Assembly (NCBI GenBank): GCA_016839515.1 | Contig: JAEOUE010000160.1 | Coordinates: 1 to 35,424 of the forward strand | Reading direction: 5' to 3' | Length of the DNA stretch: 35,424 nucleotides | Source: Candidatus Hodarchaeum mangrovi | GTDB lineage: Archaea; Asgardarchaeota; Heimdallarchaeia; Hodarchaeales; Hodarchaeaceae | Shown: in pieces, positions 4,416-33,751 of the stretch | Layout: every line of letters begins with the position of its first letter | Numbering within the stretch: position 1 is the stretch's first letter | Position numbers and translations under genes: made by a program | Notes under the pieces: generated by a model | The model's input: only the letters and a program-made list of their open reading frames with translations | Told to the model about the DNA's origin: nothing | Database searches by the model: none

Positions 4416-4466
4416 AAATTATCTTGGATTGTCAAAATAATAATTTAATGTGGTGAACAAATATTT

Positions 4467-13263: not shown

Positions 13264-13283
13264 AATATCAACTCCTGAATACT

Positions 13284-14258: not shown

Positions 14259-14260
14259 GG

Positions 14261-15232
14261 TTACACATCCCTTGTCCTTGGATCTAATACATCTCGTAAC
14301 CAGTCTCCAAGAAGATTAAAGCCTAATACTACAATGAATATAGCTAATCCAGGAAAGAACATCGGCCATGGGTGATCAAAGAAGGTATAACGTGCACCAT
14401 TCATATCACCTCCCCAGTCTGGTTGATTTGGTCGTGCACCAAGGCCAATAAAACTGAGTCCAGCGGTACTCATGATGGCACCACCAATACCCATGGTTGC
14501 ATATACTAGAATAATTGGGAAAACGTTGGGTAGTACATGTTTTACGATAATTCGTGCTTCACTAGATCCTGTAGCTCGTGCTGCATCAATAAAATCCATT
14601 TCACGAACCGCTAGTACGGATCCACGTAATATTCGGGCATAACCAGGGATTCCCATAAAACCAACGAAGAACATTGCAATTAGAAGGGTGTATTTTCCTG
14701 CTGGATTCCAAGGCTGGTCCGAGAGGGCTGCTACTATAATTAATAGCATAAAGAAACTAGGAATTGACATCCAAGCATCTACAATTCGCATTAAAATATT
14801 ATCAACACTACCACCAAGATAACCAGAAAGCGATCCAATTAGGATACCCCCAAATAGGCCAACTGATATCGCCAATGTCCCTGCTAGAACAGCACTTCGG
14901 GCTCCATAAAGGATACGAGAAAATATATCTTGGCCAGCCCAATCAGTTCCCATCAAGTAAGGAAATCCAGTGGTAGGGGTATCTCCGGTAATTAAGAATG
15001 GATCTTGAAAGGAAGGCATACCTACAGTATAATCATCTTCAGTTGGGTGATATGGAGCTATTACATCAGCAAAAATTGCAATTGAAAAGAATCCAAGGAT
15101 TATGATGAATCCGATTAACGCTGTCCAGTTATGGATAAGGGAGTGAAAATAGGCCCGTAGTCTTGCTCGAAATCGTCGTTCACGTTTGACTTGAGCGATA
15201 AGCTCTTCTTGAGTCATAATACTCATACCCAT
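14261..15232 (-). CDS. oppC: Oligopeptide/dipeptide ABC transporter permease
   Basis: MGTDWAGQDIFSRILYGAR, EAA-like FIDAARATG, HVLPN, GDWLRDVLDPR; SD aggagtga. Confidence 0.93.
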   Translation of the reverse strand: MGMSIMTQEELIAQVKRERRFRARLRAYFHSLIHNWTALIGFIIILGFFSIAIFADVIAPYHPTEDDYTVGMPSFQDPFLITGDTPTTGFPYLMGTDWAGQDIFSRILYGARSAVLAGTLAISVGLFGGILIGSLSGYLGGSVDNILMRIVDAWMSIPSFFMLLIIVAALSDQPWNPAGKYTLLIAMFFVGFMGIPGYARILRGSVLAVREMDFIDAARATGSSEARIIVKHVLPNVFPIILVYATMGIGGAIMSTAGLSFIGLGARPNQPDWGGDMNGARYTFFDHPWPMFFPGLAIFIVVLGFNLLGDWLRDVLDPRTRDV

Positions 15233-15247
15233 GATAAATCACTCCTT

Positions 15248-16255
15248 TTAACTGTACCGAATACGTGGATCTAAATAAGCATACGCAATATCCACCACAA
15301 GGTTCATCAAGATTAACAAAGTAGAACTAAATAGTACTACGCCCATAATTACTGGATAATTACGTGTAAGTAGTGCACGATAACCATAACGTCCCATACC
15401 AGGCCATGAAAAAATAGTTTCCATAATTACAGCTCCACCAAACAAACCAGCAAGATCTAGTCCAATAATAGTTACTACTGGAATTAGGGCGTTTTTCAGA
15501 GCATGTTTGTAGATAACCACTTTTTCAGCTAAACCTTTAGATCGTGCAGTGGTAATATAATCTTGTCGAATAACCTCTAACATACTCGACCGAGTAATTC
15601 GGGCATAAAATCCTGCTGACGCAATTCCCATTGCCACTCCTGGAATAATTAAGCGTCCAATGGGGGATGCATTATCACGCCAACCTGGAGTAATGAATCC
15701 TCCATGTAAAGGAAATAAGTCAATGGCTATGAATTGAATTAGAATAAATGCTAACCAATATCCCGGTGTAGAATAAAGAGTTAATGTAACAAAAACTAAA
15801 AACCGATCAGTAAATTGATTGTGTTTGACAGCTGAAATAATCCCTACAATTATTCCTGTTGAACAGGCAAATAATAGTGCTGTTGTTGTTAACTGTAATG
15901 TTGCAGGGAATAAATGTAACATCTCTTCAACTATTGGTTGGTTCGTCTCCCAATTTCTACCAAAATCACCTGTTGCGAGATGGGCTAACCAGATTAAGTA
16001 TTGTATCCAAACTGGATGGTTTAATCCCAGTTCATCTCTTAATCGTTCATATTCTGCTTCCATGGCCATTAAATCTTCTGCAGTAATATCTTTTTGCCCT
16101 CTCATCATCTCGGGGTTGATTGCTCCACCAAAAATTAGTGTAGCAGGATCCCCTACAGCAAGGGCTGCGGAAGAATAGGTAATCATTGTGATTACCAATA
16201 AAAGCACAGGGGCAAGAATTAACCGTTTGACAACGTATCCTCTAAGACCTGCCAT
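15248..16255 (-). CDS. oppB: Oligopeptide/dipeptide ABC transporter permease
   Basis: GDFGR, RITRSSMLEV, DYITTARSKGL, HALKNA, ETIFSWPGMG, LDPRIRY. Confidence 0.95.
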   Translation of the reverse strand: MAGLRGYVVKRLILAPVLLLVITMITYSSAALAVGDPATLIFGGAINPEMMRGQKDITAEDLMAMEAEYERLRDELGLNHPVWIQYLIWLAHLATGDFGRNWETNQPIVEEMLHLFPATLQLTTTALLFACSTGIIVGIISAVKHNQFTDRFLVFVTLTLYSTPGYWLAFILIQFIAIDLFPLHGGFITPGWRDNASPIGRLIIPGVAMGIASAGFYARITRSSMLEVIRQDYITTARSKGLAEKVVIYKHALKNALIPVVTIIGLDLAGLFGGAVIMETIFSWPGMGRYGYRALLTRNYPVIMGVVLFSSTLLILMNLVVDIAYAYLDPRIRYS

Positions 16256-16281
16256 TGTTTTGCACCTTTTACCAATATTAC

Positions 16282-16330
16282 GGCAAATATCTGTGAAACA
16301 GAGAATTGCCAGAATAGAAATCCTTATATA
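16282..16330 (-). promoter_or_regulatory. Putative oppB promoter: TATA box TATATAAG (16330-16323) with an inverted repeat over the expected start site
   Basis: The same TATATAAG octamer occurs upstream of oppA; the inverted repeat ggcaa..tctgt-gaa-acaga..ttgcc spans 16282-16310. Confidence 0.45.
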
Positions 16331-16602
16331 TCTTTATAAAGGAAATTAATTCTTCACTTCCTAGTTATATATTTTAATTATATGTATCAGAAAAATGATA
16401 TATCAGAAATAAGAATTTCATCCCACAAATGAATATTATATGAGAAAAAATTAAATATTGTTAATTTATTTCGTAAATTATTTCTTATAGGTTGGATAAA
16501 TAAGATTTCAAGTTGAATTATAAAATAAATGCTATTTTATAGAAATGAACTAATTACCTAGATTGAAGAAGTCCTGAGAAATTTGGAATTATAAATGAAG
16601 AA

Positions 16603-17012
16603 TTAAACAAAAAATATCTCTCTAATCCAAGAATTTAAAATAACTAATTGCTCATCTTTTAGGACTGCTCCATTTCTGTGAATACTTGTAAAATTCTCCC
16701 AAACCTTGGATGATTGGGTGATTAGGTTAATAAATTTTCCTAACTTTTTTATTGGATGGTAAGATAGGCCTTAAAAACATAACAGAATAGGAGTGGACTT
16801 TTTTCTTTGAATATTAAATTATATTCTTTATATTTTATACGCTCAATTGAACCTCCACTTATAGAGGCAAATGCGTTCTTCATTATAGAATTAACGGCTG
16901 AAATAATCCCACTTAATAGCTGTTCTTCAAATTTCTGTTCATTAAATCTTTTTGAATAAACGCATAAACCATTCTCATGCATTACTAGAAGCAGAATGGA
17001 TTCTTCTTCTTT
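16603..17012 (-). pseudogene. 5'-truncated, frameshifted fragment of a longin-like C-terminal domain of the kind found on Asgard proteins
   Basis: The frame reads KEEESILLLVMHENGLCVYSKRF...LLSGIISAV...SIERIKYKEY...FCYVFK. After a 1-nt shift near 16770 it continues (G)LSYHPIKKLGKFINLITQSSKVWENF...LNSWIREIFFV* to a stop at 16603. Confidence 0.7.
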
Positions 17013-18729
17013 AACTGAAATAGGGATTAATTCTAAAATATTTTATAGTAATATGTTATTTGCGAAAATCATAGGTCAAGAAATACCTGATCTTTATCAA
17101 CGATTAAGTCTAGTTAGAAGTACTAGTTTGGCTGGTGAATGGATTTTCGCTTCAACAGCTTTTCCCCATAAGCAGAAAGCTCATCAATATTACGGAAAGA
17201 GAAGATTCACTCCTAACGTATCTGTACCAATGTTATCGACTTCTATTTCTTATGAGGATCTTTTGAAGTGTCAATCTTTTGTTCCAGAATTCCTGAATCT
17301 CTGTATTAAATCTATTAAAAAATACAACGCCCCAATTATTGGTATTTCAACCTTTTTTCAGCAAACCTGTGCAGCTATTTCCATTGCTAAAGAAATAAAA
17401 AGAAATTTTCCCAAAAGTTTAATCATTCTTGGAGGAGGGAACTGCTTAGTTCCCATGAATTATGCACTTGATTCCTTAACACGAAATACAGTAGATTACA
17501 TTTTTAGCGGGGAAGCTGAGAGGGAATTCAAAGATTTCTGTCTGAATTATCTGAAAGAAGGGGTTTTACCTTCAAAACATCTTATTGAATGTGCACCGAT
17601 TCCAGATCTTGATCTATTACCGATTCCAGATTATGATGAATATTATGGACAATTATATGAATTTGGATTAGAATCAAATATTCGAAGACTTGGATTTGAG
17701 TCTTCTCGAGGATGCTGGTGGGGTGAAAAATCAAACTGTCTATTTTGTGGGTTGAATGGAATAGATATCCATTATCGCCAAAAATCTCTTAAAAGAATAT
17801 GTCATGAAATAGAATTCTTAAGTAAGAAATATAATGTAACATTATTGCAAGCAACGGATAATATCATGCCCAAAGATCTACCCGAAGCTTTAATGCAAAA
17901 ATTTAGCCCTCCTTCAACTCTCAATAGCATTTATTACGAAGTAAGGCCAACTCTTTCGTTTGAAGAATTATATTATTGTAAAAAAGCAGGAATAAAAACA
18001 CTTCAACCTGGAATGGAATCATTAACTAATCATTTATTATTCCTATTATCAAAAGGATTGACAGCTTCAGGAAACATCCGATTTTTAAGAGACTGCCGAA
18101 ATTTAGGGATTCGACTTGATTGGAATCTGTTGTATGGGATTCCTGGGGAAGAGGTAAAAGATTATGAGGAAATGTTACGGATTATTCCATTTATAAGTCA
18201 CCTAGCACCTCCAGATTTCATTGGACCAGTCAATATTCAACGATATAGTCCATTATATATGAATCCGAAAAAATATGGAATTTCCAAAATCATACCTCAT
18301 CCCAACTACTTGGAAATATATCCAGATGAAACTGACTTCTTTCAATTTGCGTTATATTTTGAAAGTAATTTCCAAACTGTATTTACTGGAGCATTAGAAC
18401 GTGAATTCCTAGCTCAAATCTCCTTCTGGCGTGAGAAATGGAAACAAAATCCTCCAACACTTCGAGCTATTAAATTAAATGAAGAAACATATTTGATTGA
18501 TGATACTCGATCTGAAGTTAATCAGGGTATAAGATTAATTTCTGCGAAATATATTAAGATATTAAACAATTTTAGAAATCCAGTAAAAAGATCTCAATTC
18601 GACATAGATGAAATACAGCTTCTTAAATGGGGTTATTTACTTAAAATAGGAGAATATGTTGTCTCTCTAGTATGTGAACCAATGCAAGTCCTAAACTATT
18701 ATGAGAAATTTAATAAAAGAATTCAGTAA
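16996..18729 (+). CDS. RiPP-maturation B12-dependent radical SAM methyltransferase-like protein (PoyC/TIGR03975-like), probably N-terminally truncated
   Basis: GEWIF, IGISTFFQQ, ILGGGNC, FSGEAE, LPIPDYDEY, ESSRGCWWGEKSNCLFCGLNG (CX7CX2C), TDNI, LQPGMES, WNLLYGIPGE, RYSP. Confidence 0.85.
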   Translation: MDSSSLTEIGINSKIFYSNMLFAKIIGQEIPDLYQRLSLVRSTSLAGEWIFASTAFPHKQKAHQYYGKRRFTPNVSVPMLSTSISYEDLLKCQSFVPEFLNLCIKSIKKYNAPIIGISTFFQQTCAAISIAKEIKRNFPKSLIILGGGNCLVPMNYALDSLTRNTVDYIFSGEAEREFKDFCLNYLKEGVLPSKHLIECAPIPDLDLLPIPDYDEYYGQLYEFGLESNIRRLGFESSRGCWWGEKSNCLFCGLNGIDIHYRQKSLKRICHEIEFLSKKYNVTLLQATDNIMPKDLPEALMQKFSPPSTLNSIYYEVRPTLSFEELYYCKKAGIKTLQPGMESLTNHLLFLLSKGLTASGNIRFLRDCRNLGIRLDWNLLYGIPGEEVKDYEEMLRIIPFISHLAPPDFIGPVNIQRYSPLYMNPKKYGISKIIPHPNYLEIYPDETDFFQFALYFESNFQTVFTGALEREFLAQISFWREKWKQNPPTLRAIKLNEETYLIDDTRSEVNQGIRLISAKYIKILNNFRNPVKRSQFDIDEIQLLKWGYLLKIGEYVVSLVCEPMQVLNYYEKFNKRIQ

Positions 18730-18750
18730 TAAAACGAAATATATCTTAGT

Positions 18751-18781
18751 ATTTTTTTAAAAAAAAGAAAAAAAGGGGGGG
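18751..18781 (-). terminator. Oligo-T terminator after oppA (may be bidirectional)
   Basis: The minus strand has a C-run then TTTTTTTCTTTTTTTT right after the TAA; the plus strand has a T7 run facing the rSAM gene. Confidence 0.6.
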
Positions 18782-18782
18782 T

Positions 18783-20714
18783 TTAGGCCCAATATGAATA
18801 AGCCACGTGATACATACTGCCACGAGAGCCAAGGAAGTTCATTAGATGATCGTTGAATGCGTATGTATCTACATACCATACGATTGGAACCTTAGGTACT
18901 TCGTGAGATATCAGATAACCTGCGTCTTCACACCCTTCAATAAACTGAGCGTCATCATTTGACCATTCAGGAGTTGGGAATGTATCTGCAGGGGCTCCAG
19001 GGATATAATTGAGTAATCCACGTCCGCCTGTGGCTTTTGCATATGCAACTTCATAATCTACATTAAGCCAGCTGTAACCTCCATATCCATAGAACATCCA
19101 GTATGCGAATGATTGGTAAGCAATGAAGTCCCATGGGGTCTCATAATTACCACCAAATCCACCTACATAGAAGTCCCAGTGTGGACCAGAAAATTCAGGG
19201 TCAGGTTCGTTCACATATGAATCATTGTATGAGTATCCACTGCCACCTTCGTATAAGGCAGTTAAGTAATTTCCCCATTCTAGCAGTTCAGTATCTACAT
19301 AGATTCCGATTTGCTTAAGGTCTTTTTGTATGGCGATAGCTCGTTTTACACAGAAGTCACAGTCCATGGTTGTAAGGACAAAATGACGACCTTTTGTTTG
19401 GTTTACACCGCCTATAGCTGTTTCATTTGCATAGATACCCCAACCAAATCGGTTGTCAGGTTCGTCTTTTAATCCCAGTGCTGTATAGCCTGCCGCATTA
19501 AGGAGGGCTTTCGACTCATTCACACCTTGATCAAAGTCATAATAATCAGAGGTGTCAAGATTTGAGAATTTATCAAGGATCCAATCTGAGAAAATTGAGT
19601 TTCGTTCATCAGCGATTCCAAGGTAAACATTATCAACAATATTTGTCCTATCAATCGCATGTGATACAGCTTTTCGGAACCACTCTTGAGAAACAGGGAA
19701 GTTACCGGGTCCACCGTAAACAGTTGGCCAATCTCCTTGAATATTCATTCCCATAGTAGCGCCTCCCAATACAGGGAGTAAATAGGCAGAATAACCTTCA
19801 GTGTTGTTGATAATTTCTAGAGATTCTAAGCTTGAAAAACGTCCTGTAGTAACATCTACACCACCAGTTCGTAGTTCAACTAAAGCCATTGCTTTCTCTG
19901 ATATGAATCGGTATTTAACGGTCTTGAAGGCCTTATCAACTGTTGGAAATGTGTAGGTTTTTCCATTATCAGCAGTGAATGTTTGACCCCAACCGAACCA
20001 ATCATCAAATCGCTCTAGAAGGACATAATCTTCTTTGGCCCATTCTTTGAACATATAAGGTCCACAGGAGACGGGATTTTCGGTGAAGTTTTCATATTTT
20101 GCCTGACAGACTGCAGTGGTGTCGGTATAGGATCCGTGTGATCCGTATGGTACAAGTGTAAAAATCTTCCAATTTCCAGCCACATCAAATTCAAACATTG
20201 GATCAGGGAACCAGTCACCAGAGAAGATTACTGTTAATCCGTCACCGTTTGGATCAGATACTGGGAAGGTTACATTCAAGTCATGTTCAGCTACTGCTTC
20301 ACTCATATTGTCGTATTGGTTGTAAGCCATATAATCGGCATATATGCTATATCGAACTGCTTTCGCATCGATTTTTGATCCATCATGGAATGTTAAACCG
20401 TCGCGAAGCGTAAATGTCCATTCTGTTCCATCTTCATTATGTGTCCAGCTCTCTGCTACTCCTGGCATTGTTACTATAGTTTCTCCAGGGGCAACTTGAC
20501 CTAGGTAGCCTTGGTATTGATAGGCTACTACTGCGTCATAGAGTGCGCTTGCGGATCGCCAGCGATTGTCTATAGTGACAATTTCTTCTTCAATTTGAAG
20601 AACTAATTCACTTTTGCTAGGTGTGGTTACACATCCGCTTAGAACAGAAATGGCAAAGATACCCACTATAACTAGTGCTAATCGAATTTTTCCGTTCATT
20701 TTTCTATTCTCCAT
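18783..20714 (-). CDS. oppA: Peptide ABC transporter substrate-binding lipoprotein (family 5)
   Basis: Lipobox VLSGC, VAESW, WTFTLRDGLTFHDG, PVSCGPY, RKAVSHAIDR, several N-x-S/T sequons; alternative start ATG 20699 with GGAG upstream. Confidence 0.9.
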   Translation of the reverse strand: MENRKMNGKIRLALVIVGIFAISVLSGCVTTPSKSELVLQIEEEIVTIDNRWRSASALYDAVVAYQYQGYLGQVAPGETIVTMPGVAESWTHNEDGTEWTFTLRDGLTFHDGSKIDAKAVRYSIYADYMAYNQYDNMSEAVAEHDLNVTFPVSDPNGDGLTVIFSGDWFPDPMFEFDVAGNWKIFTLVPYGSHGSYTDTTAVCQAKYENFTENPVSCGPYMFKEWAKEDYVLLERFDDWFGWGQTFTADNGKTYTFPTVDKAFKTVKYRFISEKAMALVELRTGGVDVTTGRFSSLESLEIINNTEGYSAYLLPVLGGATMGMNIQGDWPTVYGGPGNFPVSQEWFRKAVSHAIDRTNIVDNVYLGIADERNSIFSDWILDKFSNLDTSDYYDFDQGVNESKALLNAAGYTALGLKDEPDNRFGWGIYANETAIGGVNQTKGRHFVLTTMDCDFCVKRAIAIQKDLKQIGIYVDTELLEWGNYLTALYEGGSGYSYNDSYVNEPDPEFSGPHWDFYVGGFGGNYETPWDFIAYQSFAYWMFYGYGGYSWLNVDYEVAYAKATGGRGLLNYIPGAPADTFPTPEWSNDDAQFIEGCEDAGYLISHEVPKVPIVWYVDTYAFNDHLMNFLGSRGSMYHVAYSYWA

Positions 20715-22706: not shown

Positions 22707-24197
22707 ATGGAAAGACCTAAAGTTACTTTAGATGGCAGTTCTCTTACAATTCAAGATCTTGTGAATGTTACTCGTCAGTTTTACAGAGTTGAATTAGCTA
22801 CTCAATCCATTGAAAAGATTAAATATTCTTCTCAAATTGTTCAAAGTATTTTATCTAAACAGCGTCGTGTTTATGGTGTAACTACTGGTTTCGGTTTTTT
22901 ACAGGATGTCGCAATATCACCCTCAGATTCTGAACAGTTACAATTAAATCTTGTAAGAAGCCATTCCGCTGGAGTTGGAGTAGAATATCCTGAAGAGATT
23001 GTTCGTGGAATGATGCTTCTACAAGCGAATAAATTTGCCCGAGGCAATTCAGGAATTCGATTAAAAACTGTAAATCTTTTACTTGAGCTTCTTAATAAAG
23101 GAATCACGCCTATTGTTCCTTCTAAAGGCAGTTTAGGAGCTAGTGGGGATTTAGCTCCACTTGCCCATCTAACTGCTGTGTTAATTGGTGAAGGTGAAGC
23201 TATGTATAAACAACAACGTCTTCCTAGTATTGAAGCGTTACAAAAAGCTAATTTGTCCCCTGTTACGCTTATTGCAAAAGAAGGATTAGCTCTACTGAAT
23301 GGTACTCAAGCAATGACTTCAATCGCTGCTCTCGCTATTTCTGATGGTGAATATTTATTGCGAATAGCTAATATTGCTGTTGCTCTCAGCATGGAAGTTC
23401 ATAGAGCTAATATTGACTCATTAAATCCCCTTATTCATGAGGCACGTCCTCACCCTGGTCAAATCTTTATTGCTCAAACACTTCGTGAGCTTTTAGAGGG
23501 CAGTCGTTTAGTATTTAGTAAGATTGGACGTCAAGATTCTTATTCAATACGATGTGTACCTGCTGTACATGGTGCATCTTATGATACTCTTCAATATGTA
23601 CGAAAAGTAATTGAAACTGAAATGAATTCTTCCACAGATAATCCCTTAATCTTTTCTCCTAACGAAATTTATTCTGGAGGGAATTTTCATGGACAACCTG
23701 TTGCCTTAGTCATGGACTTTTTAGGAATTGCTTTTGCGGAAATTGGAAATATCTCTGAAAGAAGAATTGAACAGCTTTTGAATCCAACTCTGAGTGGATT
23801 ACCTGCTTTTCTTGCTCCTAATAGTGGATTAAATTCGGGTTTTATGATTGCCCAATACACCGCAGCGTCTTTAGTATCAGAGAATAAACATCTCGCGAGT
23901 CCAGCATCTGTAGATTCTATTCCTGTATCTGCAAATCAGGAAGATCATGTTAGTATGGGATCGATTGCAGCGTCACAAACCCGTCAGATTATTGAACATC
24001 TTGAGATAATTCTCGCAATTGAATTACTTTGTGTTTGCCAGGCTATTGACTTAGCAGATATACAAAACAATTTATCTCCCCCCTTACGTGAAGTTTTTAA
24101 TATTTTACGTAAAGTAATCCCTGTTTTAGAATCAGATCGTATATTATCTACCGATATAAAGAAAAGTTCAGCCCTAATCAAGTCCAGAGCATTTTAA
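22707..24197 (+). CDS. hutH: Histidine ammonia-lyase
   Basis: VYGVTTGFG, LVRSH (HAL-type SH specificity motif), MIO-forming GASGDL, KEGLALLNGT, QDSYSIRC, GGNFHG, NQEDHVSMG. Confidence 0.96.
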   Translation: MERPKVTLDGSSLTIQDLVNVTRQFYRVELATQSIEKIKYSSQIVQSILSKQRRVYGVTTGFGFLQDVAISPSDSEQLQLNLVRSHSAGVGVEYPEEIVRGMMLLQANKFARGNSGIRLKTVNLLLELLNKGITPIVPSKGSLGASGDLAPLAHLTAVLIGEGEAMYKQQRLPSIEALQKANLSPVTLIAKEGLALLNGTQAMTSIAALAISDGEYLLRIANIAVALSMEVHRANIDSLNPLIHEARPHPGQIFIAQTLRELLEGSRLVFSKIGRQDSYSIRCVPAVHGASYDTLQYVRKVIETEMNSSTDNPLIFSPNEIYSGGNFHGQPVALVMDFLGIAFAEIGNISERRIEQLLNPTLSGLPAFLAPNSGLNSGFMIAQYTAASLVSENKHLASPASVDSIPVSANQEDHVSMGSIAASQTRQIIEHLEIILAIELLCVCQAIDLADIQNNLSPPLREVFNILRKVIPVLESDRILSTDIKKSSALIKSRAF

Positions 24198-25592: not shown

Positions 25593-26921
25593 ATGAACTT
25601 ATCAGACATTTTACAGCTCATTCAATCAGAAAAAATTGAAGAAATCGCGTTACAATTTACTGATATTGCAGGAATTCTTCATACTCTATGGATTCCTTCT
25701 GAGGAAATTACCAAAGTTATTCAAGAGGGAATTCATACTGATGGGTCATCTCTTGGAGTAGTAGATGTCAGTAAAAGTGATATTAAGCTAGTTCCTGATT
25801 TATCTAGTTTTGTTTTACTCCCTCCCGACCTTTATGCACATAAGATTGCTCGCGTTGTCTGTGATTTATATGAACCAGAATCTGACAAACCTTTTGAATT
25901 AGATCCTAGATTTATTTTGAAAAAAGTAACTAGAGATGTTCAAAATATCCTTGGATCATCTATATCCTGCTCTGCTTCTAGTGAAATAGAGTTTTTCCTA
26001 TTTAGAAAAGGTGAAAATGGGCAACTAGTTTTAATTGATGATGCAGGATATCTGGCTTCTCCTCCTGCAGACCAAGGAGCAGACTTACGATTAGAGATTA
26101 CCAAAACTCTTAGAAAAATAGGAATTCTTATTGAAAAACATCATCATGAAGTTCCCCATGGAAAAAGTGAGTTTAACCTCCCCTATGCTGATGCAGTAAA
26201 GATGGCTGATACAATTTATTTGATCAAGTTTATCATAAAATTGATGGCATCAAAAAAAGGACTCATCGCGTCTTTTATGCCTAAACCATTTCACGGTGAA
26301 TATGGAGCTGGATTACACACACATATAAATCTAAGAGATAATGCTAAGAATCAAAATTTGTTTGTTGATCCGAATGGTGCTTCTGGATTAAGTTCCCTTG
26401 CTTTGAACTTCATGGCCGGTATCTTAAAACACGCAAAAGCTCTCACAGGATTTACTAATCCTTCTGTTAATTCCTATAAACGACTTGTTCCTGGTTGGGA
26501 GGCTCCTGTATACATTTCTTGGGCTAATTATAATCGTTCAGCACTTATAAGGATCCCTCCAGGAAAGAAGAAAGCTGCACGCCTGGAATATCGACCTACT
26601 GATGGGTCCTGCAATTTTTATCTTGCCTATGCGGCCCTAATAGCCGCAGGATTATCTGGATTAATTGATAAACTAGATCCTCCTCCACCAATTGAAGAAA
26701 ATATTTATGAAATGAATCCGAAAGAACGTTTACAGCGTGGTATTGGAATCTTACCTAGTAGTCTAGGAGAAGCTCTTACTGAGCTAGCTCAAGATAATTA
26801 TTTACGAGAGCATATGGGAAATAAATTTTTTTCTAAATATTTAGAGATTAAAGATTCTGAATGGAGAGCATTCAGTATATTTGTTCATGAATGGGAAAGA
26901 AAAAGATATCTTGATGTTTAA
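25593..26921 (+). CDS. glnA: Glutamine synthetase type I family protein
   Basis: QFTDIAG, DGSS, EIEFFLF, HHEV, FMPKP, NSYKRLVPGWEAP, NRSALIRIP, RLEYR. Confidence 0.85.
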   Translation: MNLSDILQLIQSEKIEEIALQFTDIAGILHTLWIPSEEITKVIQEGIHTDGSSLGVVDVSKSDIKLVPDLSSFVLLPPDLYAHKIARVVCDLYEPESDKPFELDPRFILKKVTRDVQNILGSSISCSASSEIEFFLFRKGENGQLVLIDDAGYLASPPADQGADLRLEITKTLRKIGILIEKHHHEVPHGKSEFNLPYADAVKMADTIYLIKFIIKLMASKKGLIASFMPKPFHGEYGAGLHTHINLRDNAKNQNLFVDPNGASGLSSLALNFMAGILKHAKALTGFTNPSVNSYKRLVPGWEAPVYISWANYNRSALIRIPPGKKKAARLEYRPTDGSCNFYLAYAALIAAGLSGLIDKLDPPPPIEENIYEMNPKERLQRGIGILPSSLGEALTELAQDNYLREHMGNKFFSKYLEIKDSEWRAFSIFVHEWERKRYLDV

Positions 26922-28242: not shown

Positions 28243-31200
28243 TCATTTATCTCGTTCACTTTTCAAGGATGGAAGTAGAATAACACATACCATTACACTT
28301 AGAAGAAGAATCCATTCAAACCCCGGCGATGATTTTTGAGACGTGGTGGATTTTGGTGGATATCCGCGAATAAAAACAAAATTGATACTTTTTGGATTTC
28401 CTGCTAGATCTTGTACAGTTAATTTGATTATATGACTTCCAGATTCGAAATTTTCTGGATATAGATTCTTTTCAATATAAAATCCAGAATGAGTTTTATT
28501 AGCCTTAGGACCATTGAATCCCGTCTTTTCCCCATCAATTTGCATAAAAGCTTGAAATTGATCAATTCCAGATTCATAATCATCAAACCAGAATATTATC
28601 TCCTCTGTTTTATATAAATAGGAATTATTTTCCATTCCTTTTACTCCAATGATTGGAGGTGTTGTATCTGTAATGATCTCGAATCCTACATACTCTGAAT
28701 TCCACGAAAAGTTAAAAATTCTAATACCTTGATCAATACTTGTACTAAAATTATACCATCCATTCACACCAAAATTTGGGATTAAGTCACTGATATTAGT
28801 AGTTAAGCTTCTTGAAGGATCATGTACAACTCCTTCTATATATGCTGAGTTATTTATTGTACCATTTTGAGAAACATGAAGGGAAATAGAAATAGTTTCA
28901 TCTACTAATTCGTAAGTACCAAATAATTGGTCTTTAGCTTGTAACCATGTGAAAATCTCTTGAAGAATTAGATCATTATGAGTTTCAAAAGTTGAAATTT
29001 CATTTAAATATCCACGATTTGAAATAAAGATAGAACCTGATGTGACCACGATTCTTCCTCCCAAAGGATAATCATATGATGCCATAGCTATATTTGATCT
29101 TCTATTATGATAAGCCAAAGCCATAGCAGGGTTCTCTATACTAAAAAAAGACCCTGATACATCAAAGTAATCGGCTGAACTACCAATAGGAGAAAGATGT
29201 TGTATCGTCGCAGGTGTTATGCCTATTGAAGGGGTAATTTCATTTGTAAATATTCCCCAATCTTTTAATAGGGACTCCATACCTAGAGGAGTACTTATTG
29301 GGGAAAGAAGAAGAGCTCCCCCCTTCTTCACATAATCCTTAATCGTTTCTTGTTCTGTAGCATTTATTAATGAATTTCGGTTTTTATAGTCCAAGTAATA
29401 GAAAAAGCTATCCACATAATATTCTTTATATGTTATATTGCTTGCCACTAACCAAATCACGTCATATTCATTTAAAAGTGAAGTAGTGAGATATGCTTTA
29501 TTTTCATTGAGAACAATTCCTTTTTTTGAAAGATCAAAAATCATGTTTCTAAAATCACCAAGGCTATTATATGCAAAATCAGCGGTAGTGCGTGTATGTA
29601 GAAGAACTTGTTTAGATGCCAGTCCAATAGTGAACAAATATGGAAAATCTAATAGAATGGTGTCATTAACTTTGAATACTATTCTACCAGAGTATTGACC
29701 TATCGGAGTATCATTAGGGACATCAAAAGATAGGATTAAGTCATGGGAATAGGCTTTAGACAATAAACCATTATTAAGATCTTGGATACTATATCTTAAA
29801 CCATTACCTGTATAATTGACTAAAACCTGTTCTTTAATATTCAAATAATTAGAGATATTTCCTTCTATAGTGACGGAAACGTTTTCCATCTCTGAAGAGA
29901 CAAAAGTAAAATGAGCTGATTTATAAACCATTCCTTGTAGAAGATTCGGTATAGGATATGTCCCAGGAACATAATTACTAATATTTAAAGGATTTGTAGC
30001 AGCATAAATTGGGTGGTTGTTAATTTTTGTTGCATTCATTAGTGCTAAGTATGCATTATAAACATTAATTTGTCCTGTTCCATGTTCCCAAGGATTATCT
30101 GAAATTATTGGCATAGCTGTACCCATTAAAGAAGCTTTCAGAGTTCCTGGATTAACTTCTAAACCTTCCTGTCTCATAGCACTTAGTAATACTGCTGCAG
30201 CTCCTGCTACATGAGGAGAGGATTGAGATGTACCATCAGTTGTAAAATATCCTCCTTCAGGAGATGTAGTAGGAATATTTGTTCCAGGTGCCACAACATC
30301 TGGTCCCATAGCATTGGTACCCCATACAGGGCCAGTACTACTATAGATAGCTCTTGATACCATACTTTCTCCTGTTGCTCCAACACTTATCTCATCAATA
30401 AGATTTGTTCCATCAATTCTGTAATCTCCACCTCCTAAATTACCAGCAGAGTGGACAAACAATACTCCATTTTCAATCGCCCGTCTTATTGTATAATAAC
30501 CTATTCTTTCATTAGGATCCAGTAACATGTTCCATGTACCAGTTTCTGGGTCAGTTGGACCATAACTACGATTAATAATATCAACACCATTCTCAATTGC
30601 CCAATTAATTGCTGCAATCTCTCCTAAAACAGTTGTTTCAAGGGAACTGTCAGAGGTTTCATCCATATCTGCATCAAGAAGCCATGATTCTGGGGCCATA
30701 CCCTTTTTGGATGAATCATTTATACCACCTCCCGCAGCAAAACCCGCAACTCCTGTTCCATGAAAGTCCGGAGTATTTGTTTTATTTTCTGAATTACCAT
30801 AAATTGTATTTATAAAGCTTTGAGAACCTAGAATTCTAGAGGTTCCATTAGGAAAACTGAAGTCAGGATGTCCTGCAAAAACTCCAGTATCAAATATTCC
30901 AATAGTTACTCCTTGTCCTTTAAAACCAAGTCCCCACATTTGAGTAACCCCTATTTTAGCTGCAGTTGCTTCTGTCTGGATATAAGGAGTAATTGTGGTT
31001 GGTGGAGAATGATGTAATACCATATTCCGTGGAGATTTTCTAATATGAAAAATATTAGACTGAGTTACCACTCTAGATTCTTTCACAAGTGAATCAATAG
31101 TTTTAGGGGTTGTATAAATCACTACTCCCTTTAATCCACGAAAAATGATTTCTACAGGATATTTTTCTGTGAATTGCTTTAAATCCTGATCTGTATTGAA

Positions 31201-31404
31201 ATAGATCAAATATAATTGCTCGGATTCACTTTTTACTGAGATAAACCTAGATACTAATCGATTTATGTCATCAGTTGTTGGTGGGGTTGGGATATCACTC
31301 CTTGATTCGTTAGTTTTAACAAATCCTATTGAAATACACGGCGAAATTATCATTATAAGAAGGAGTAATGTCAACTGTAACTCTATTGTAATCATTTTTG
31401 GCAT
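28243..31404 (-). CDS. Cell-surface S8 subtilase with accessory domains and a PGF-type C-terminal sorting/TM segment
   Basis: Signal peptide; catalytic IFDTG, FHGTGVAG, oxyanion SAGN and GTSQSSPHVAG; Ig-like region (DTTPP...DLAGN); tail STTSQKSSPGFEW followed by a TM. Confidence 0.92.
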   Translation of the reverse strand: MPKMITIELQLTLLLLIMIISPCISIGFVKTNESRSDIPTPPTTDDINRLVSRFISVKSESEQLYLIYFNTDQDLKQFTEKYPVEIIFRGLKGVVIYTTPKTIDSLVKESRVVTQSNIFHIRKSPRNMVLHHSPPTTITPYIQTEATAAKIGVTQMWGLGFKGQGVTIGIFDTGVFAGHPDFSFPNGTSRILGSQSFINTIYGNSENKTNTPDFHGTGVAGFAAGGGINDSSKKGMAPESWLLDADMDETSDSSLETTVLGEIAAINWAIENGVDIINRSYGPTDPETGTWNMLLDPNERIGYYTIRRAIENGVLFVHSAGNLGGGDYRIDGTNLIDEISVGATGESMVSRAIYSSTGPVWGTNAMGPDVVAPGTNIPTTSPEGGYFTTDGTSQSSPHVAGAAAVLLSAMRQEGLEVNPGTLKASLMGTAMPIISDNPWEHGTGQINVYNAYLALMNATKINNHPIYAATNPLNISNYVPGTYPIPNLLQGMVYKSAHFTFVSSEMENVSVTIEGNISNYLNIKEQVLVNYTGNGLRYSIQDLNNGLLSKAYSHDLILSFDVPNDTPIGQYSGRIVFKVNDTILLDFPYLFTIGLASKQVLLHTRTTADFAYNSLGDFRNMIFDLSKKGIVLNENKAYLTTSLLNEYDVIWLVASNITYKEYYVDSFFYYLDYKNRNSLINATEQETIKDYVKKGGALLLSPISTPLGMESLLKDWGIFTNEITPSIGITPATIQHLSPIGSSADYFDVSGSFFSIENPAMALAYHNRRSNIAMASYDYPLGGRIVVTSGSIFISNRGYLNEISTFETHNDLILQEIFTWLQAKDQLFGTYELVDETISISLHVSQNGTINNSAYIEGVVHDPSRSLTTNISDLIPNFGVNGWYNFSTSIDQGIRIFNFSWNSEYVGFEIITDTTPPIIGVKGMENNSYLYKTEEIIFWFDDYESGIDQFQAFMQIDGEKTGFNGPKANKTHSGFYIEKNLYPENFESGSHIIKLTVQDLAGNPKSINFVFIRGYPPKSTTSQKSSPGFEWILLLSVMVCVILLPSLKSERDK

Positions 31405-31682: not shown

Positions 31683-32402
31683 ATGTCAGTAATAACCAAA
31701 AGCTTAGGAAAATGGTTTACAAAACCAGTAGAACCTTCTGAAAAAGAATTGCTGATTGATTTTATTGGTGATCTGGATTCTGTGTTAGAATCCATGGAAG
31801 ATTTAGCAGCTGACATGTATGAAGGATTTAATTCTCAGATTTTACAACAGCGATCGGTTTATTCGAAACTAATAGCACTACTACCTAATTTCTTACAACC
31901 CACTGAAATTCGTGTGCAAACAAAAAGAAGAAATGAACTTAATTCTACAAAGCTAAAAATGATGTATCTTCGAAAAACTCTCAATGAAATAGGATCATCC
32001 ATTAAACAAAAAGAATTTTCCGCAAAATCTTCTTCAGAAATTAACTTTGGCCAACAAATTTATGAATTGGCGTATCCTGGAGAGAGAATTAATACTCACA
32101 AAGTAGGAACCCTTGAAGAACGTCTTCAAATTCTTGAAAATTCATTCCTAACATCCATGGATAAAGTAAATGATCAGTTAAATGATATATCACACAATCT
32201 GAAAACTTTGAAGGATCGCCTTGATGAACAAAATGTTAAAATCGACCGAATCGATAACAAAATTTCTGAAGTGGACTCTAAATTAAAGAAAATTCAATCT
32301 TCCCTAGTTAATATATCACGGAAGTTAACCCAAAACCGTACATTATTGGCTTTGCTTGCTGGATCAGTCATTGCTTTAATCATTGTAATTATCATTATCT
32401 AA
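31683..32402 (+). CDS. Tail-anchored coiled-coil protein with a Q-SNARE-like motif
   Basis: Helical N-terminal region, an uninterrupted heptad M159-I211 centred on Q183, and a C-terminal TM (221-239) ending at the stop. Confidence 0.7.
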   Translation: MSVITKSLGKWFTKPVEPSEKELLIDFIGDLDSVLESMEDLAADMYEGFNSQILQQRSVYSKLIALLPNFLQPTEIRVQTKRRNELNSTKLKMMYLRKTLNEIGSSIKQKEFSAKSSSEINFGQQIYELAYPGERINTHKVGTLEERLQILENSFLTSMDKVNDQLNDISHNLKTLKDRLDEQNVKIDRIDNKISEVDSKLKKIQSSLVNISRKLTQNRTLLALLAGSVIALIIVIIII

Positions 32403-32551: not shown

Positions 32552-33022
32552 ATGCAGAGAGATGAAATTCATCGTGAGCTCACGCGTCTGCTAAAAAGCG
32601 ATATTTCAATAAAAGTCACGCTCCTAGGCGATAGAACTGGTTTAACAATAGCCCGTGCATCAAGATTACTTGTTTCAGAAACCATGGGAGCCTTTGATCT
32701 TGAAAGCATAGGAGCTATCGCTTCTGCAGTCTTCTGTGGGGCTGCAGAACAAGGTAGTGCCCTTTCATTAGGAAGCTTAGGATTAATGCTTGCGGAGTTC
32801 TCTGATGGAAAGATTCTCACTGCTGAATGCGGGGAAAGAGGCGTACTAGTTGTTGTTGCAGAATCAGATGCTCAACTAGGACTAATCAGAGTAAAAATGA
32901 AAGAATCATCTGGAAATTTAGCTTCACAAATGGATAAAATATCTGAGCCATCAGCTGTTAAAATTAGAAAACCAGAATCCCAATCTATTATGGCAGCTTT
33001 GAAAGAATTAGAGAATTTTTAA
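32552..33022 (+). CDS. Roadblock/LC7 (MglB-like) domain protein with a C-terminal extension
   Basis: LLGDRTGLTIA, IGAIASAVFCGA, LAEFSDGKILT, VLVVVAESDAQLGLIRVKM; SD aggtgga. Confidence 0.88.
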   Translation: MQRDEIHRELTRLLKSDISIKVTLLGDRTGLTIARASRLLVSETMGAFDLESIGAIASAVFCGAAEQGSALSLGSLGLMLAEFSDGKILTAECGERGVLVVVAESDAQLGLIRVKMKESSGNLASQMDKISEPSAVKIRKPESQSIMAALKELENF

Positions 33023-33130: not shown

Positions 33131-33751
33131 GTGAAGTCGATGTCTTTTTCACAGCTTAATGATATTATGTTGAAATTAACAGATGAGGTAACAGTTCAGG
33201 TACTTAATGTGCTACTCGGGCATCGTGAGATTATTGATGAAGAGATTGTTAACATTCTCAATGAAGGATCTTCACCCGAGACTGAAGAAAATATTGAACA
33301 GGAAATAAAAGAAGAACCTGCTCCCAGAATTGCATTGAAAGAGGTTAGAAAGTCTCTATACAAATTAAACGAAAGATCACTGGCAAGATATCGACGGGTA
33401 AGGGATCGTGAAACAGGATATTTCGTTTATTACTGGAGTCCAATATGGGAGCGAATACGTGACCTTATTGTACGAAGAAGAAAATCGAGTCTTAAGAAAT
33501 TACGTCAAAGATTGGATTACGAGGAAAGAAATCTCCTTTATGTATGTGCTTCAGGACATAACCCTGTTACCTTTTCTGATGCTTTCGAACTTGGATTTAT
33601 CTGTACCACTTGTGGAGAGGAACTTTCACAGAAAGAAAATGCTCAAACCATTCATTTTCTTAAAGAAAAGATTCAAGAATTAGAAAAAGAGCTTAAAACT
33701 GGGTTAGATGAGCTGGATGGATTAGTAGAACTTCAAGAGAAAGTAAAATGA
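33131..33751 (+). CDS. tfe: Archaeal transcription factor E (TFIIE-alpha homolog)
   Basis: Winged helix EVRKSLYKL...RVRDRETGYFVYYW and zinc ribbon CxxGH...FSDAFELGFICTTCG; the start may be ATG 33140. Confidence 0.92.
   Translation: MKSMSFSQLNDIMLKLTDEVTVQVLNVLLGHREIIDEEIVNILNEGSSPETEENIEQEIKEEPAPRIALKEVRKSLYKLNERSLARYRRVRDRETGYFVYYWSPIWERIRDLIVRRRKSSLKKLRQRLDYEERNLLYVCASGHNPVTFSDAFELGFICTTCGEELSQKENAQTIHFLKEKIQELEKELKTGLDELDGLVELQEKVK

What the first reader, a model, noticed from the sequence alone, without database searches (positions are those of the whole stretch)
31683..32402. Syntaxin-6/SNAP-25-like Q-SNARE candidate in an archaeal genome
Seen: setting Q183 (codon 32229) as layer 0, all 15 other SNARE layer positions are hydrophobic: M159 V162 L166 I169 L173 L176 L180 [Q183] I187 I190 I194 V197 L201 I204 L208 I211. 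A short basic linker (SRKLTQNRT) and a terminal TM with no external tail follow. About 105 residues of helical-looking N-terminal sequence plus a Ser-rich linker precede the motif. Knowledge: the core RLDEQNVKIDRIDNK resembles the SNAP-25 Qc core EIDTQNRQIDRIMEK, the size and layout match Qb/Qc SNAREs with an Habc domain, and SNARE-like proteins have been reported from Heimdallarchaeota. Inference: a proto-SNARE. Every layer is a large aliphatic residue, without the small-residue asymmetric layers of eukaryotic SNAREs, so it may form a symmetric homo-bundle.
Basis: partly seen in the sequence, partly recalled or inferred. Interest (0 to 1): 0.9.

Follow-up and report, generated by a model that had tools for sequence, protein, structure and literature searches.

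The report
Known Heimdall archaeal SNARE-like protein

Summary
The ORF at 31683-32402 (+, 239 aa) is real. It is the only one of 4325 ORFs in its 4.0-Mb genome with this pattern.

It belongs to a small, length-conserved family confined to Heimdallarchaeia and is single-copy here. It is 57% identical (E 2e-89), with the same gene order, to a 239-aa ORF of Heimdallarchaeota B3_Heim. That ORF has the taxid, F155 and Q183 reported for HPS1.

Published work on HPS1 reports a crystal structure: a parallel homotetramer with 16 layers and a four-glutamine 0-layer (bioRxiv 10.1101/810531 and 10.64898/2026.10.19.760048).

My own tests agree:
- Q183 is invariant in 49 of 49 close orthologues.
- A four-copy model is parallel and in register, score 0.84 against 0.01 for the best control.
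- The nearest language-model clusters are eukaryotic SNAREs.

Pfam SNARE hits stay below threshold. The N-terminal domain models as a two-helix hairpin plus a short helix, not a clear Habc bundle.

Verdict: observation confirmed, interpretation supported, already known. Fusion activity in vivo remains unshown.

The parts
31683..32402 (+). Complete gene for a 239-aa tail-anchored SNARE-like protein (stop codon 32400-32402), orthologue of Heimdall SNARE HPS1
   Evidence: ORF list and translation. 67 homologues with E <= 0.01, mostly 239 aa. 57% identity, E 2e-89, to the B3_Heim ORF L014:6001-6720. Single copy in its own genome.
31740..32009 (+). N-terminal helical domain: two long helices (residues 20-54 and 74-109) joined by a loop containing a short helix (59-65)
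   Evidence: AlphaFold2 on residues 1-140 with a 46-row alignment: mean pLDDT 78.5, with the 10-residue blocks covering residues 21-100 at 85-95. The full-length model shows the same helices. Foldseek found only generic helical hairpins, 0 of 130 matches at E <= 0.001.
32037..32084 (+). Short third helix (residues 119-130) running into the conserved motif Y127-E128-x-x-x-P132-G133-E134
   Evidence: The helix is predicted with lower confidence, block pLDDT about 67. Y127 E128 P132 G133 E134 are invariant in 49 orthologues. Its role is unknown.
32157..32315 (+). 53-residue SNARE motif, layers -7 (M159) to +8 (I211)
   Evidence: Layer residues verified and conserved as hydrophobic. The four-copy model shows same-residue contacts at 169, 187, 190, 194, 197, 201, 204 and 208. 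The HPS1 construct covers aa 150-216.
32229..32231 (+). Codon CAA for Q183, the polar 0-layer
   Evidence: Q in 49 of 49 close orthologues. Q in 17 and H in 3 of 20 divergent relatives. Q183 is the 0-layer in the HPS1 crystal structure (paper).
32316..32342 (+). Basic juxtamembrane linker SRKLTQNRT (residues 212-220)
   Evidence: Sequence. S212 K214 L215 T216 Q217 N218 T220 are invariant in 49 orthologues.
32343..32399 (+). C-terminal transmembrane tail anchor (residues 221-239) with no luminal tail
   Evidence: Sequence. The mean Kyte-Doolittle value of the best 19-residue C-terminal window is 3.32. The only other stretch scored as TM-like was excluded by the tail-anchor filter.

Best explanation
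The gene encodes a member of the published Heimdallarchaeial SNARE-like family (the 'Hod' clade that contains HPS1).

Architecture: the protein is tail-anchored, with a cytosolic N-terminal helical domain, a flexible linker, a 53-residue 16-layer heptad motif with glutamine at layer 0, a 9-residue basic linker and a C-terminal TM helix.

What is shown or predicted: four identical motifs zipper in parallel and in register into a very stable homotetrameric four-helix bundle. This is shown by crystallography and SEC-MALS for the orthologue HPS1, and predicted here for this protein.

What is inferred: because each helix carries its own membrane anchor at the C-terminal end, N-to-C zippering between copies sitting in two membranes would pull those membranes together, as eukaryotic SNAREs do. 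That trans assembly and any fusion in the archaeal cell have not been shown. Also inferred only are insertion by the genome's Get3/ArsA-type ATPase and disassembly by one of its four Cdc48-type ATPases.
For: Family membership:
- 67 homologues, almost all 239 aa, named by their sources as Hodarchaeales or Heimdallarchaeota MAG proteins.
- Only 28 proteins at E <= 0.001 among 1.84 billion cluster representatives.
- 57% identity, E 2e-89, to the 239-aa ORF of B3_Heim. Its taxid 2012493 is the one the 2019 preprint gives for the HPS1 source. It carries F155 and Q183, the residue numbers used for HPS1.
- The gene order S8 peptidase | SNARE | Roadblock | TFE | polyprenyl synthase is identical.
- Strong matches (E <= 1e-50) occur in 37 of 400 Asgard genomes, all in the window's own class. 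There is one copy in the window's genome, as the paper reports for most species.

Motif: the layers are verified and conserved. The pattern is unique among the 4325 ORFs of the genome.

Assembly: four copies of residues 140-216 scored 0.84 in all 3 runs, against 0.01 for the best of 3 controls. Partner pLDDT was 89, and the runs agree in at least 100% of their contacts (as the tool printed it). The tool's mark was reached by 20 of 30 solved pairs and 1 of 23 single chains in its calibration. Same-residue contacts indicate a parallel, in-register bundle.

SNARE likeness: the language-model search returned 30 named hits and displayed six sets. Five of the sets carry PF05739 (one together with the syntaxin 6/10/61 N-domain family) and one, of 4 hits, has no common Pfam family. 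The best hit scores 0.94 with 196 of 256 features shared. At E <= 0.01, 35 of 49 orthologues hit PF05739 and 31 of 49 hit PF12352.

Published work on HPS1: a 2.4 A crystal structure of the homotetramer, unfolding above 90 C, ER localisation in HeLa cells and fibroblasts, and complexes with neuronal SNAREs.

Cellular context in the same genome: one strong ArsA/Get3 match (E 2.9e-84) and four CDC48_N matches.
Against: - This protein's own Pfam SNARE hits are below the curated cut-offs: PF05739 15.1 bits against 26.8, PF00957 15.5 against 26.4, PF12352 14.7 against 27.1. They rank behind unrelated coiled-coil families; Baculo_PEP_C is best at E 2.5e-05.
- Among orthologues, DUF1664 is hit by more members (46 of 49) than SNARE (35 of 49).
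- Profile and single-sequence searches of PDB sequences give no hit better than E 0.0026. The top hits are a viral phosphoprotein, designed coiled coils and viral fusion proteins. SNARE chains appear only at E 0.017 to 0.95: VAMP2, syntaxin 7, syntaxin 6 and SNAP-25.
- The complex model may score high from memory of solved SNARE bundles. The job tested only four copies, so it does not discriminate four from two or three. Its calibration used two copies.
- That the B3_Heim ORF is accession PWI47941.1 is inferred from taxid, length and residue numbers.
- The paper reports no disassembly by murine NSF and no fusion assay.
- A cultivated Heimdallarchaeion with internal membrane compartments is reported to lack SNAREs (passage read). 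One family of the same class has no match in 0 of 31 genomes. So internal membranes in this class do not depend on this protein.
Confidence: 0.88

Rival explanations
1. It is a tetrameric tail-anchored coiled coil that resembles SNAREs by convergence and is not their homologue. Any long parallel four-helix bundle next to a membrane anchor would have this look.
For: Sequence similarity to SNARE models is sub-threshold and mixed with many unrelated coiled-coil families. All layers are large aliphatic residues, without the asymmetric small-residue layers of eukaryotic SNAREs. Layer 0 tolerates His in 3 of 31 genes from three families. The paper's simulations show that an Arg at layer 0 is not accommodated, and NSF does not disassemble the bundle.
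Against: The combination of 53-residue length, a central polar layer, a short basic linker and a tail anchor is unique in this genome. Five of the six hit sets shown by the language-model search carry PF05739; the sixth, of 4 hits, has no common family. The published phylogeny places Heimdall SNAREs as a well-supported clade beside the eukaryotic types, and the core volume profile matches eukaryotic complexes. The family occurs only in the archaeal class regarded as closest to eukaryotes.
Confidence: 0.12
2. It is a true member of the family, but its cellular role is not fusion. The four anchors sit in one membrane (a cis tetramer) and the protein acts as a scaffold, tether or regulator, for instance of membrane shape or of another tail-anchored protein.
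For: With four identical chains nothing enforces a trans topology. The bundle is extremely stable (unfolding above 90 C) and resists NSF, so it might form once and stay assembled. No SM protein (Sec1 family) match was found in the genome, which is 91% complete, although the control genomes also gave none, so that search has no positive control. Relatives with internal compartments lack the gene.
Against: The parallel, in-register geometry with the anchors at the C-terminal end is the fusogenic geometry (paper). HPS1 can replace individual helices in neuronal SNARE complexes. Four Cdc48-type ATPases are available as possible disassembly machines.
Confidence: 0.3
3. The ORF is a chance open frame, or its heptad pattern is an accident of an AT-rich genome.
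For: The window has 34.7% G+C, which enriches I, L, K and N codons.
Against: The full-length protein is conserved in 37 genomes and the reading frame is kept at 239 aa. One of 4325 ORFs shows the pattern. There are 50 invariant columns in 49 orthologues.
Confidence: 0.01

Closest known systems
HPS1, the Heimdallarchaeota Prototypic SNARE (PWI47941.1 of Heimdallarchaeota archaeon B3-JM-08 / B3_Heim); Neveu et al. 2019 bioRxiv 10.1101/810531; Bentahar et al. 2026 bioRxiv 10.64898/2026.10.19.760048
   Same: Both are 239 aa with F155, Q183, the same layer residues or conservative changes, the same linker KLTQNRTLL and the same tail anchor. Identity is 57% over 228 residues. The flanking genes are the same. 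A parallel homotetramer is predicted here and solved for HPS1.
   Different: This is another species of the same GTDB genus. It has N184 instead of the family's near-invariant G184 and a Ser-rich stretch in the linker. Nothing has been measured on this protein itself.
Eukaryotic Qc SNAREs of the syntaxin 6/10/61 type and the SNAP-25 C-terminal motif
   Same: They share a 16-layer motif with a central Gln, a short basic linker, a tail anchor (syntaxin 6) and a helical N-terminal domain of about 100 residues. Syntaxin 6/10/61 clusters are the commonest set among the language-model look-alikes, 15 of 30. The authors phased HPS1 with the syntaxin-6 helix of 2NPS.
   Different: - Pfam thresholds are not reached.
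- The published tree puts the family outside Qa, Qb, Qc and R.
- The assembly is a homotetramer with a 4Q layer, not a QabcR heterotetramer with 3Q:1R.
- All layers are bulky aliphatic residues.
- There is one gene per genome.
- NSF does not disassemble the bundle.
- The N-domain is modelled as a hairpin plus a short helix, not a clear three-helix bundle.
Generic prokaryotic and viral coiled coils that top the sequence searches (DUF1664, Baculo_PEP_C, archaeal FlaC, paramyxovirus fusion and phosphoproteins)
   Same: They share heptad periodicity, which yields E-values of 1e-2 to 1e-5. Some sources label orthologues 'archaellum component FlaC', 'chromosome segregation ATPase' or 'RecN'.
   Different: None of these hits reaches its curated cut-off. 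They lack the combination of a central polar layer, a basic linker and a terminal TM helix. The source names are automatic labels, not tested functions.

Membership tests
Heimdall SNARE-like proteins (HPS1/HPS2 family) | Full-length sequence homology to HPS1 | tested here: met
   57% identity over 228 of 239 residues, E 2e-89, to the B3_Heim ORF L014:6001-6720. The identity of that ORF with PWI47941.1 is inferred from taxid 2012493, F155 and Q183.
Heimdall SNARE-like proteins (HPS1/HPS2 family) | Architecture: N-terminal helical extension, central SNARE motif, short linker, C-terminal TM domain | tested here: met
   The same architecture holds across 48 aligned relatives.
Heimdall SNARE-like proteins (HPS1/HPS2 family) | Restricted to Heimdallarchaeia, usually one gene per genome | tested here: met
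   Matches at E <= 1e-50 occur in 37 of 400 Asgard genomes, all of the same class. The 14 other genomes with a match have only partial hits at E 1e-6 to 1e-3. There is one match in the window's own genome. One tandem duplicate was seen in G078.
Heimdall SNARE-like proteins (HPS1/HPS2 family) | Parallel homotetrameric four-helix bundle | tested here: inconclusive
   The model of four copies scored 0.84 against 0.01 for the best control, with contacts parallel and in register. This is a prediction only, other stoichiometries were not tested, and the score may partly reflect memory of solved SNARE bundles. The bundle is solved for HPS1 (paper).
Eukaryotic SNARE superfamily (Pfam PF05739 / PF00957 / PF12352) | 53-residue heptad motif with 16 core layers and a conserved polar Q/R 0-layer | tested here: met
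   Q is present in 49 of 49 close orthologues; in the divergent set, 17 have Q and 3 have H.
Eukaryotic SNARE superfamily (Pfam PF05739 / PF00957 / PF12352) | Score above the curated Pfam gathering threshold | tested here: not met
   PF05739 15.1 bits against 26.8, PF00957 15.5 against 26.4, PF12352 14.7 against 27.1. The published assignment used the Kloepper SNARE HMMs at E <= 1e-4, which I could not run.
Eukaryotic SNARE superfamily (Pfam PF05739 / PF00957 / PF12352) | Heterotetrameric QabcR complex with asymmetric layers and a 3Q:1R 0-layer | tested here: not met
   There is a single gene in the genome, all layers are bulky aliphatic residues, and HPS1 is a 4Q homotetramer.
Eukaryotic SNARE superfamily (Pfam PF05739 / PF00957 / PF12352) | Drives membrane fusion and is recycled by NSF/alpha-SNAP | not testable with these tools
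   The paper states that fusion has not been demonstrated and that the bundle resists murine NSF. PF14938 (SNAP) hits in the genome lie in long TPR-like ORFs, and the model also matches in Bacillus subtilis, Deinococcus radiodurans and Methanosarcina acetivorans, so they are not informative.
   The models show two long helices (20-54, 74-109; the 10-residue blocks covering residues 21-100 have pLDDT 85-95) plus a 12-residue helix 119-130 (pLDDT about 67). Foldseek found 0 of 130 and 0 of 149 matches at E <= 0.001, and no syntaxin N-domain in the listed top 50 ranks. There is no Pfam hit to PF09177 or other syntaxin N-domain families among the 25 families shown of 80. The papers call the region 'likely' a three-helix bundle.

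The most novel reading that the evidence does not exclude
In the order Hodarchaeales the SNARE-like gene is kept next to a very strongly conserved Roadblock/LC7 gene, 81-92% identical within the genus while the SNARE is 57-61% identical. The SNARE's own N-terminal domain is a helical hairpin plus a short helix ending in an invariant YE...PGE motif, not an Habc bundle. The boldest reading not excluded is that the Roadblock protein is a dedicated regulator of the archaeal SNARE. Roadblock has a fold related to the longin domains fused to eukaryotic R-SNAREs (recalled knowledge). On this reading it would dock on the hairpin and motif and control whether the homotetramer forms in cis or in trans, a forerunner of longin-SNARE coupling.
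Probability: 0.07. Interest if true: 0.75.

Novelty: already known. Interest (0 to 1): 0.3.

Why it matters
SNAREs are the core fusion machines of the eukaryotic endomembrane system. An archaeal homomeric precursor bears on how that system arose. That point has already been made and structurally documented for the orthologue HPS1, in the 2019 and 2026 preprints read here. What this window adds is modest:
- Another species' orthologue with a conserved gene neighbourhood.
- Confirmation that the motif is unique in a 4-Mb genome.
- A count of the family's distribution: present in five families of the class, absent from a sixth with 31 genomes.
- Recurrent His at layer 0.
- A model-based doubt about the Habc-like nature of the N-terminal domain.

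Tried and rejected
- PDB sequence searches, with the single protein and with a 49-row profile, gave no hit better than E 0.0026. The HPS1 structure is evidently not in this copy, so no direct structural identification was possible.
- Foldseek with the full-length model and with the N-domain model found nothing at E <= 0.001. The best-probability match of the N-domain is a lengthened ROP helical hairpin (prob 0.93, E 1.3). I therefore do not claim an Habc fold.
- Linkage of the SNARE gene to Roadblock and TFE was tested across clades. It holds in 17 of 18 named loci; the 18th ends at its contig end. It also holds in all same-genus loci and in one locus of a second family, L037. It is absent within 1.5 kb in 10 loci of families f2, f3, f5 and f6. 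I do not claim a functional link.
- A conserved 345-aa neighbour in families f5 and f6 was followed up. It has no Pfam family. It is present in 66 of 83 genomes of the class, including 30 of 31 genomes of the SNARE-less family f4. In the window's genome it is unlinked (contig C234). I reject it as a SNARE-specific partner.
- The Sec1/SM family search of the window's genome found nothing, but nothing matched in the 14 control genomes either, so there is no conclusion. SNAP (PF14938) hits are TPR-like and non-specific.
- For expression, no RNA holder was listed.
- Supplementary files of the two SNARE preprints (sequence lists, Extended Data tables) and the Tracey database were not seen. They may list this very protein.
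- Papers, and how much I saw. 10.64898/2026.10.19.760048: abstract, Introduction, all Results, Discussion and the phylogeny Methods. 10.1101/810531: abstract and outline, plus eight passages found by term search. 10.1101/2025.11.06.686947: one passage. All others: search listings only.
- The statements that VAMP2 R56 would align with Q183 in the sub-threshold hits, and that roadblock and longin folds are related, are recalled and not tested.
Full report
**The observation.** The window holds an ATG-started ORF at 31683..32402 on the + strand, encoding 239 aa. Every residue in the finding is correct. M159 V162 L166 I169 L173 L176 L180 precede Q183 (codon CAA at 32229), and I187 I190 I194 V197 L201 I204 L208 I211 follow it. 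The core reads RLDEQNVKIDRIDNK. The linker SRKLTQNRT (212-220) leads into a hydrophobic stretch, 221-239, that runs to the stop codon.

To ask whether an AT-rich genome (34.7% G+C) would give this by chance, I laid the window's own genome (4.0 Mb, 348 contigs, 91% complete). I scanned all 4325 six-frame ORFs of at least 80 aa for a proline-free 53-residue window with L/I/V/M/F at the 15 flanking layer positions. One ORF reaches 15 of 15 (this one), 5 reach 14 and 22 reach 13.

**The family.** A word-indexed search found 67 homologues at E <= 0.01, down to 52% identity. Almost all are 239 aa, and where their sources name them they are hypothetical proteins of Hodarchaeales, Hodarchaeota or Heimdallarchaeota MAGs. 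A few carry other Asgard labels or automatic names such as 'archaellum component FlaC'. An exhaustive phmmer scan of 1.84 billion cluster representatives found only 28 proteins at E <= 0.001, among them about 17 full-length relatives at 26-38% identity.

In 49 close orthologues Q183 is invariant, and there are 50 invariant columns in all. These include F155, the motif Y127-E128/P132-G133-E134 and most of the linker. In 20 divergent relatives every layer stays hydrophobic. The exceptions are small residues at +6 in 11 of the 20 and single T, C or A residues at +3 and +4. Layer 0 is Q in 17 and H in 3.

A profile search of 400 Asgard genomes gave strong matches (E <= 1e-50) in 37 genomes, all in the window's own class:

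| Family | Genomes with a strong match |
|---|---|
| f1 (plus the window's genome) | 19 of 21 |
| f2 | 2 of 2 |
| f3 | 1 of 1 |
| f5 | 3 of 3 |
| f6 | 11 of 12 |
| f4 | 0 of 31 |

Family f7 has only two weak partial hits in 12 genomes. The 12 hits outside the class are partial, at E 1e-6 to 1e-3, in ORFs of other lengths. The window's genome has one copy.

**Identification with the literature.** Two preprints from one laboratory describe this family. The 2019 preprint (10.1101/810531; abstract and passages read) found tail-anchored SNARE-like proteins in Heimdallarchaeota. It named PWI47941.1 of archaeon B3-JM-08 (txid 2012493) HPS1, with the SNARE region at aa 150-216. It showed that HPS1 forms complexes with neuronal SNAREs.

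The 2026 preprint (10.64898/2026.10.19.760048; Introduction, Results, Discussion and phylogeny Methods read) reports the following:
- HPS1 unfolds only above 90 C.
- It is a 34-kDa tetramer by SEC-MALS, measured with an F155W variant.
- It crystallises as a parallel, fourfold-symmetric four-helix bundle with 16 layers and four Q183 residues in layer 0.
- It localises to the ER in HeLa cells and fibroblasts.
- It is not disassembled by murine NSF.
- It belongs to a set of about 50 proteins found only in Heimdallarchaeia (clades 'Hod', 'Kari' and 'Heimdall'), usually one per genome, forming a clade apart from Qa, Qb, Qc and R.

Taxid 2012493 is now named 'Candidatus Heimdallarchaeota archaeon B3_Heim'. 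A scan of species-representative genomes returned a B3_Heim contig (L014) with a 239-aa ORF that has F155 and Q183. The window's protein is 57% identical to it over 228 residues, E 2e-89. Both genes sit in the same order: S8 peptidase (opposite strand), SNARE, Roadblock/LC7, TFE-alpha, polyprenyl synthase.

The equation 'L014 ORF = HPS1' is therefore an inference, though a tight one.

**Independent tests of the SNARE reading.** By ordinary profile methods the resemblance to eukaryotic SNAREs is weak. PF05739, PF00957 and PF12352 hit at E 0.015-0.038, all below their curated cut-offs and behind unrelated coiled-coil families. Among 49 orthologues, 35 hit PF05739 and 31 hit PF12352 at E <= 0.01, but 46 hit DUF1664. 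PDB sequence searches are led by viral and designed coiled coils, with VAMP2, syntaxin 7, syntaxin 6 and SNAP-25 only at E 0.017-0.95.

A protein-language-model search is more specific. It returned 30 named hits and displayed six sets. Five sets carry PF05739 (best 0.94, 196 of 256 features shared), and the commonest set, 15 of 30, is syntaxin 6/10/61. One set of 4 hits has no common Pfam family.

A model of four copies of residues 140-216 scored 0.84 in all three runs, against 0.01 for the best of three controls, with partner pLDDT 89. The tool's mark was reached by 20 of 30 solved pairs and 1 of 23 single chains in its calibration. Its lowest-error contacts are between the same residue numbers on neighbouring chains (169, 187, 190, 194, 197, 201, 204, 208), which means a parallel, in-register bundle. 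The tool warns that such a pass may reflect memory of solved SNARE bundles. The job also did not compare stoichiometries.

**The N-terminal domain.** AlphaFold2 on the full length (48-row alignment) gives mean pLDDT 65 and breaks the SNARE helix at 183-189. On residues 1-140 alone the mean pLDDT is 78.5. That model has two long helices, 20-54 and 74-109 (the 10-residue blocks covering residues 21-100 have pLDDT 85-95), a short loop helix, and a 12-residue third helix, 119-130, of lower confidence.

Foldseek finds only generic helical hairpins: ROP, the F1 gamma subunit and PspA/Vipp1/ESCRT-III-type hairpins. Nothing reaches E <= 0.001, and no syntaxin N-domain appears among the listed top 50 ranks.

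**Mechanism.** Shown for the orthologue and predicted here: four identical motifs form a very stable parallel bundle with the membrane anchors at one end. Inferred: if the copies sit in two membranes, N-to-C zippering would pull the membranes together. If they sit in one membrane, the bundle is a cis assembly with some other role.

The genome offers a strong Get3/ArsA-type ATPase (E 2.9e-84) for tail-anchor insertion and four Cdc48-type ATPases as candidate disassembly machines. These are common archaeal genes, and their link to this protein is speculation, raised also by the authors. No Sec1/SM match was found, but that search had no positive control.

Two facts argue against an indispensable role in internal membranes. 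A cultivated Heimdallarchaeion with internal compartments is reported to lack SNAREs. A whole family of the class lacks the gene, 0 of 31, including two single-contig genomes 92-93% complete.

**Gene neighbourhood.** SNARE-Roadblock-TFE is kept in 17 of 18 named loci; the 18th ends at a contig end. It is also kept in one locus of a second family of the order (L037). It is not found within 1.5 kb in 10 loci of families f2, f3, f5 and f6. There, in f5 and f6, a conserved 345-aa protein with no Pfam family lies upstream. That protein is also present in 30 of 31 SNARE-less f4 genomes and is unlinked in the window's genome, so it is not a specific partner. The neighbourhood therefore gives no firm functional clue.

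**Verdict.** The interpretation, a proto-SNARE that may form a symmetric homo-bundle, is supported and coincides with published experimental work on an orthologue of the same genus. It is therefore already known. My additions are minor: uniqueness of the motif in the genome, distribution counts, recurrent His at layer 0, the unusual N184, and doubt about the Habc fold. Interest 0.3.

Noticed in passing
window 32552-33022 (+) and 33131-33751 (+): A Roadblock/LC7 gene (PF03259, E 1.7e-06) and a TFE-alpha gene (PF02002) follow the SNARE gene. The Roadblock protein is 81-92% identical across same-genus loci, while the SNARE is 57-61% identical. The trio is kept in 17 of 18 named loci and in one locus of a second family (L037), but not in families f3, f5 and f6.
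   Followed up: partly
L037 (G079), L038 (G010), L048 (G045); layer-0 position aligned to residue 183: His replaces Gln at layer 0 in 3 of 31 family genes, taken from 30 genome loci belonging to three different families. It is also His in 3 of 20 divergent cluster representatives. The 0-layer glutamine is therefore not absolutely conserved in the wider family.
   Followed up: partly
window 32232-32234 (codon 184): The window's protein has N184 where G184 is at least 90% conserved in the family.
   Followed up: no
L041-L048, upstream of the SNARE gene (e.g. L041:306-1340, L046:2368-3402): A conserved protein of about 345 aa with no Pfam match and about 100 invariant columns in 7 sequences lies next to the SNARE gene. 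It is co-directional in family f5 and divergent in f6. It is present in 66 of 83 genomes of the class, including 30 of 31 SNARE-less f4 genomes, and lies on another contig (C234) in the window's genome.
   Followed up: yes
L040 (G078:C473:2993-3697 and 3760-4464): There is a tandem duplication of the SNARE-like gene in one genome of family f2. One copy has H instead of F at the position of F155. The 2026 preprint mentions two genomes with a duplication.
   Followed up: no
window 1513-2217 (+), 4958-7795 (+), 7796-8677 (+): Other eukaryote-like genes lie in the window: a small GTPase matching Arf and Ras (E about 1e-08), and an arrestin-C domain protein (PF02752, E 5e-09) directly after a 945-aa AAA-lid plus VWA protein.
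   Followed up: no
window 28243-31404 (-): A 1053-aa S8 subtilase with hydrophobic N- and C-terminal ends lies divergent to the SNARE gene. It is found at this position in 5 of 18 named loci.
   Followed up: no
window 2520-4415, 22707-24197, 12265-20714, 25593-26921: Metabolic genes in the window: urocanase and histidine/aromatic ammonia-lyase (histidine use), an Opp-type peptide ABC transporter with its binding protein, an M20 peptidase and glutamine synthetase.
   Followed up: no
own genome G000 (all contigs): A crude hydropathy filter marks 82 of 4325 ORFs as tail-anchored-like. The 2019 preprint remarks on large tail-anchored repertoires in Heimdallarchaeota.
   Followed up: no
homologues P0016, P0019, P0024, P0043, P0061 and others: Public sources label several orthologues 'archaellum component FlaC', 'chromosome segregation ATPase' or 'DNA repair ATPase RecN'. 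These look like automatic coiled-coil mislabels.
   Followed up: no
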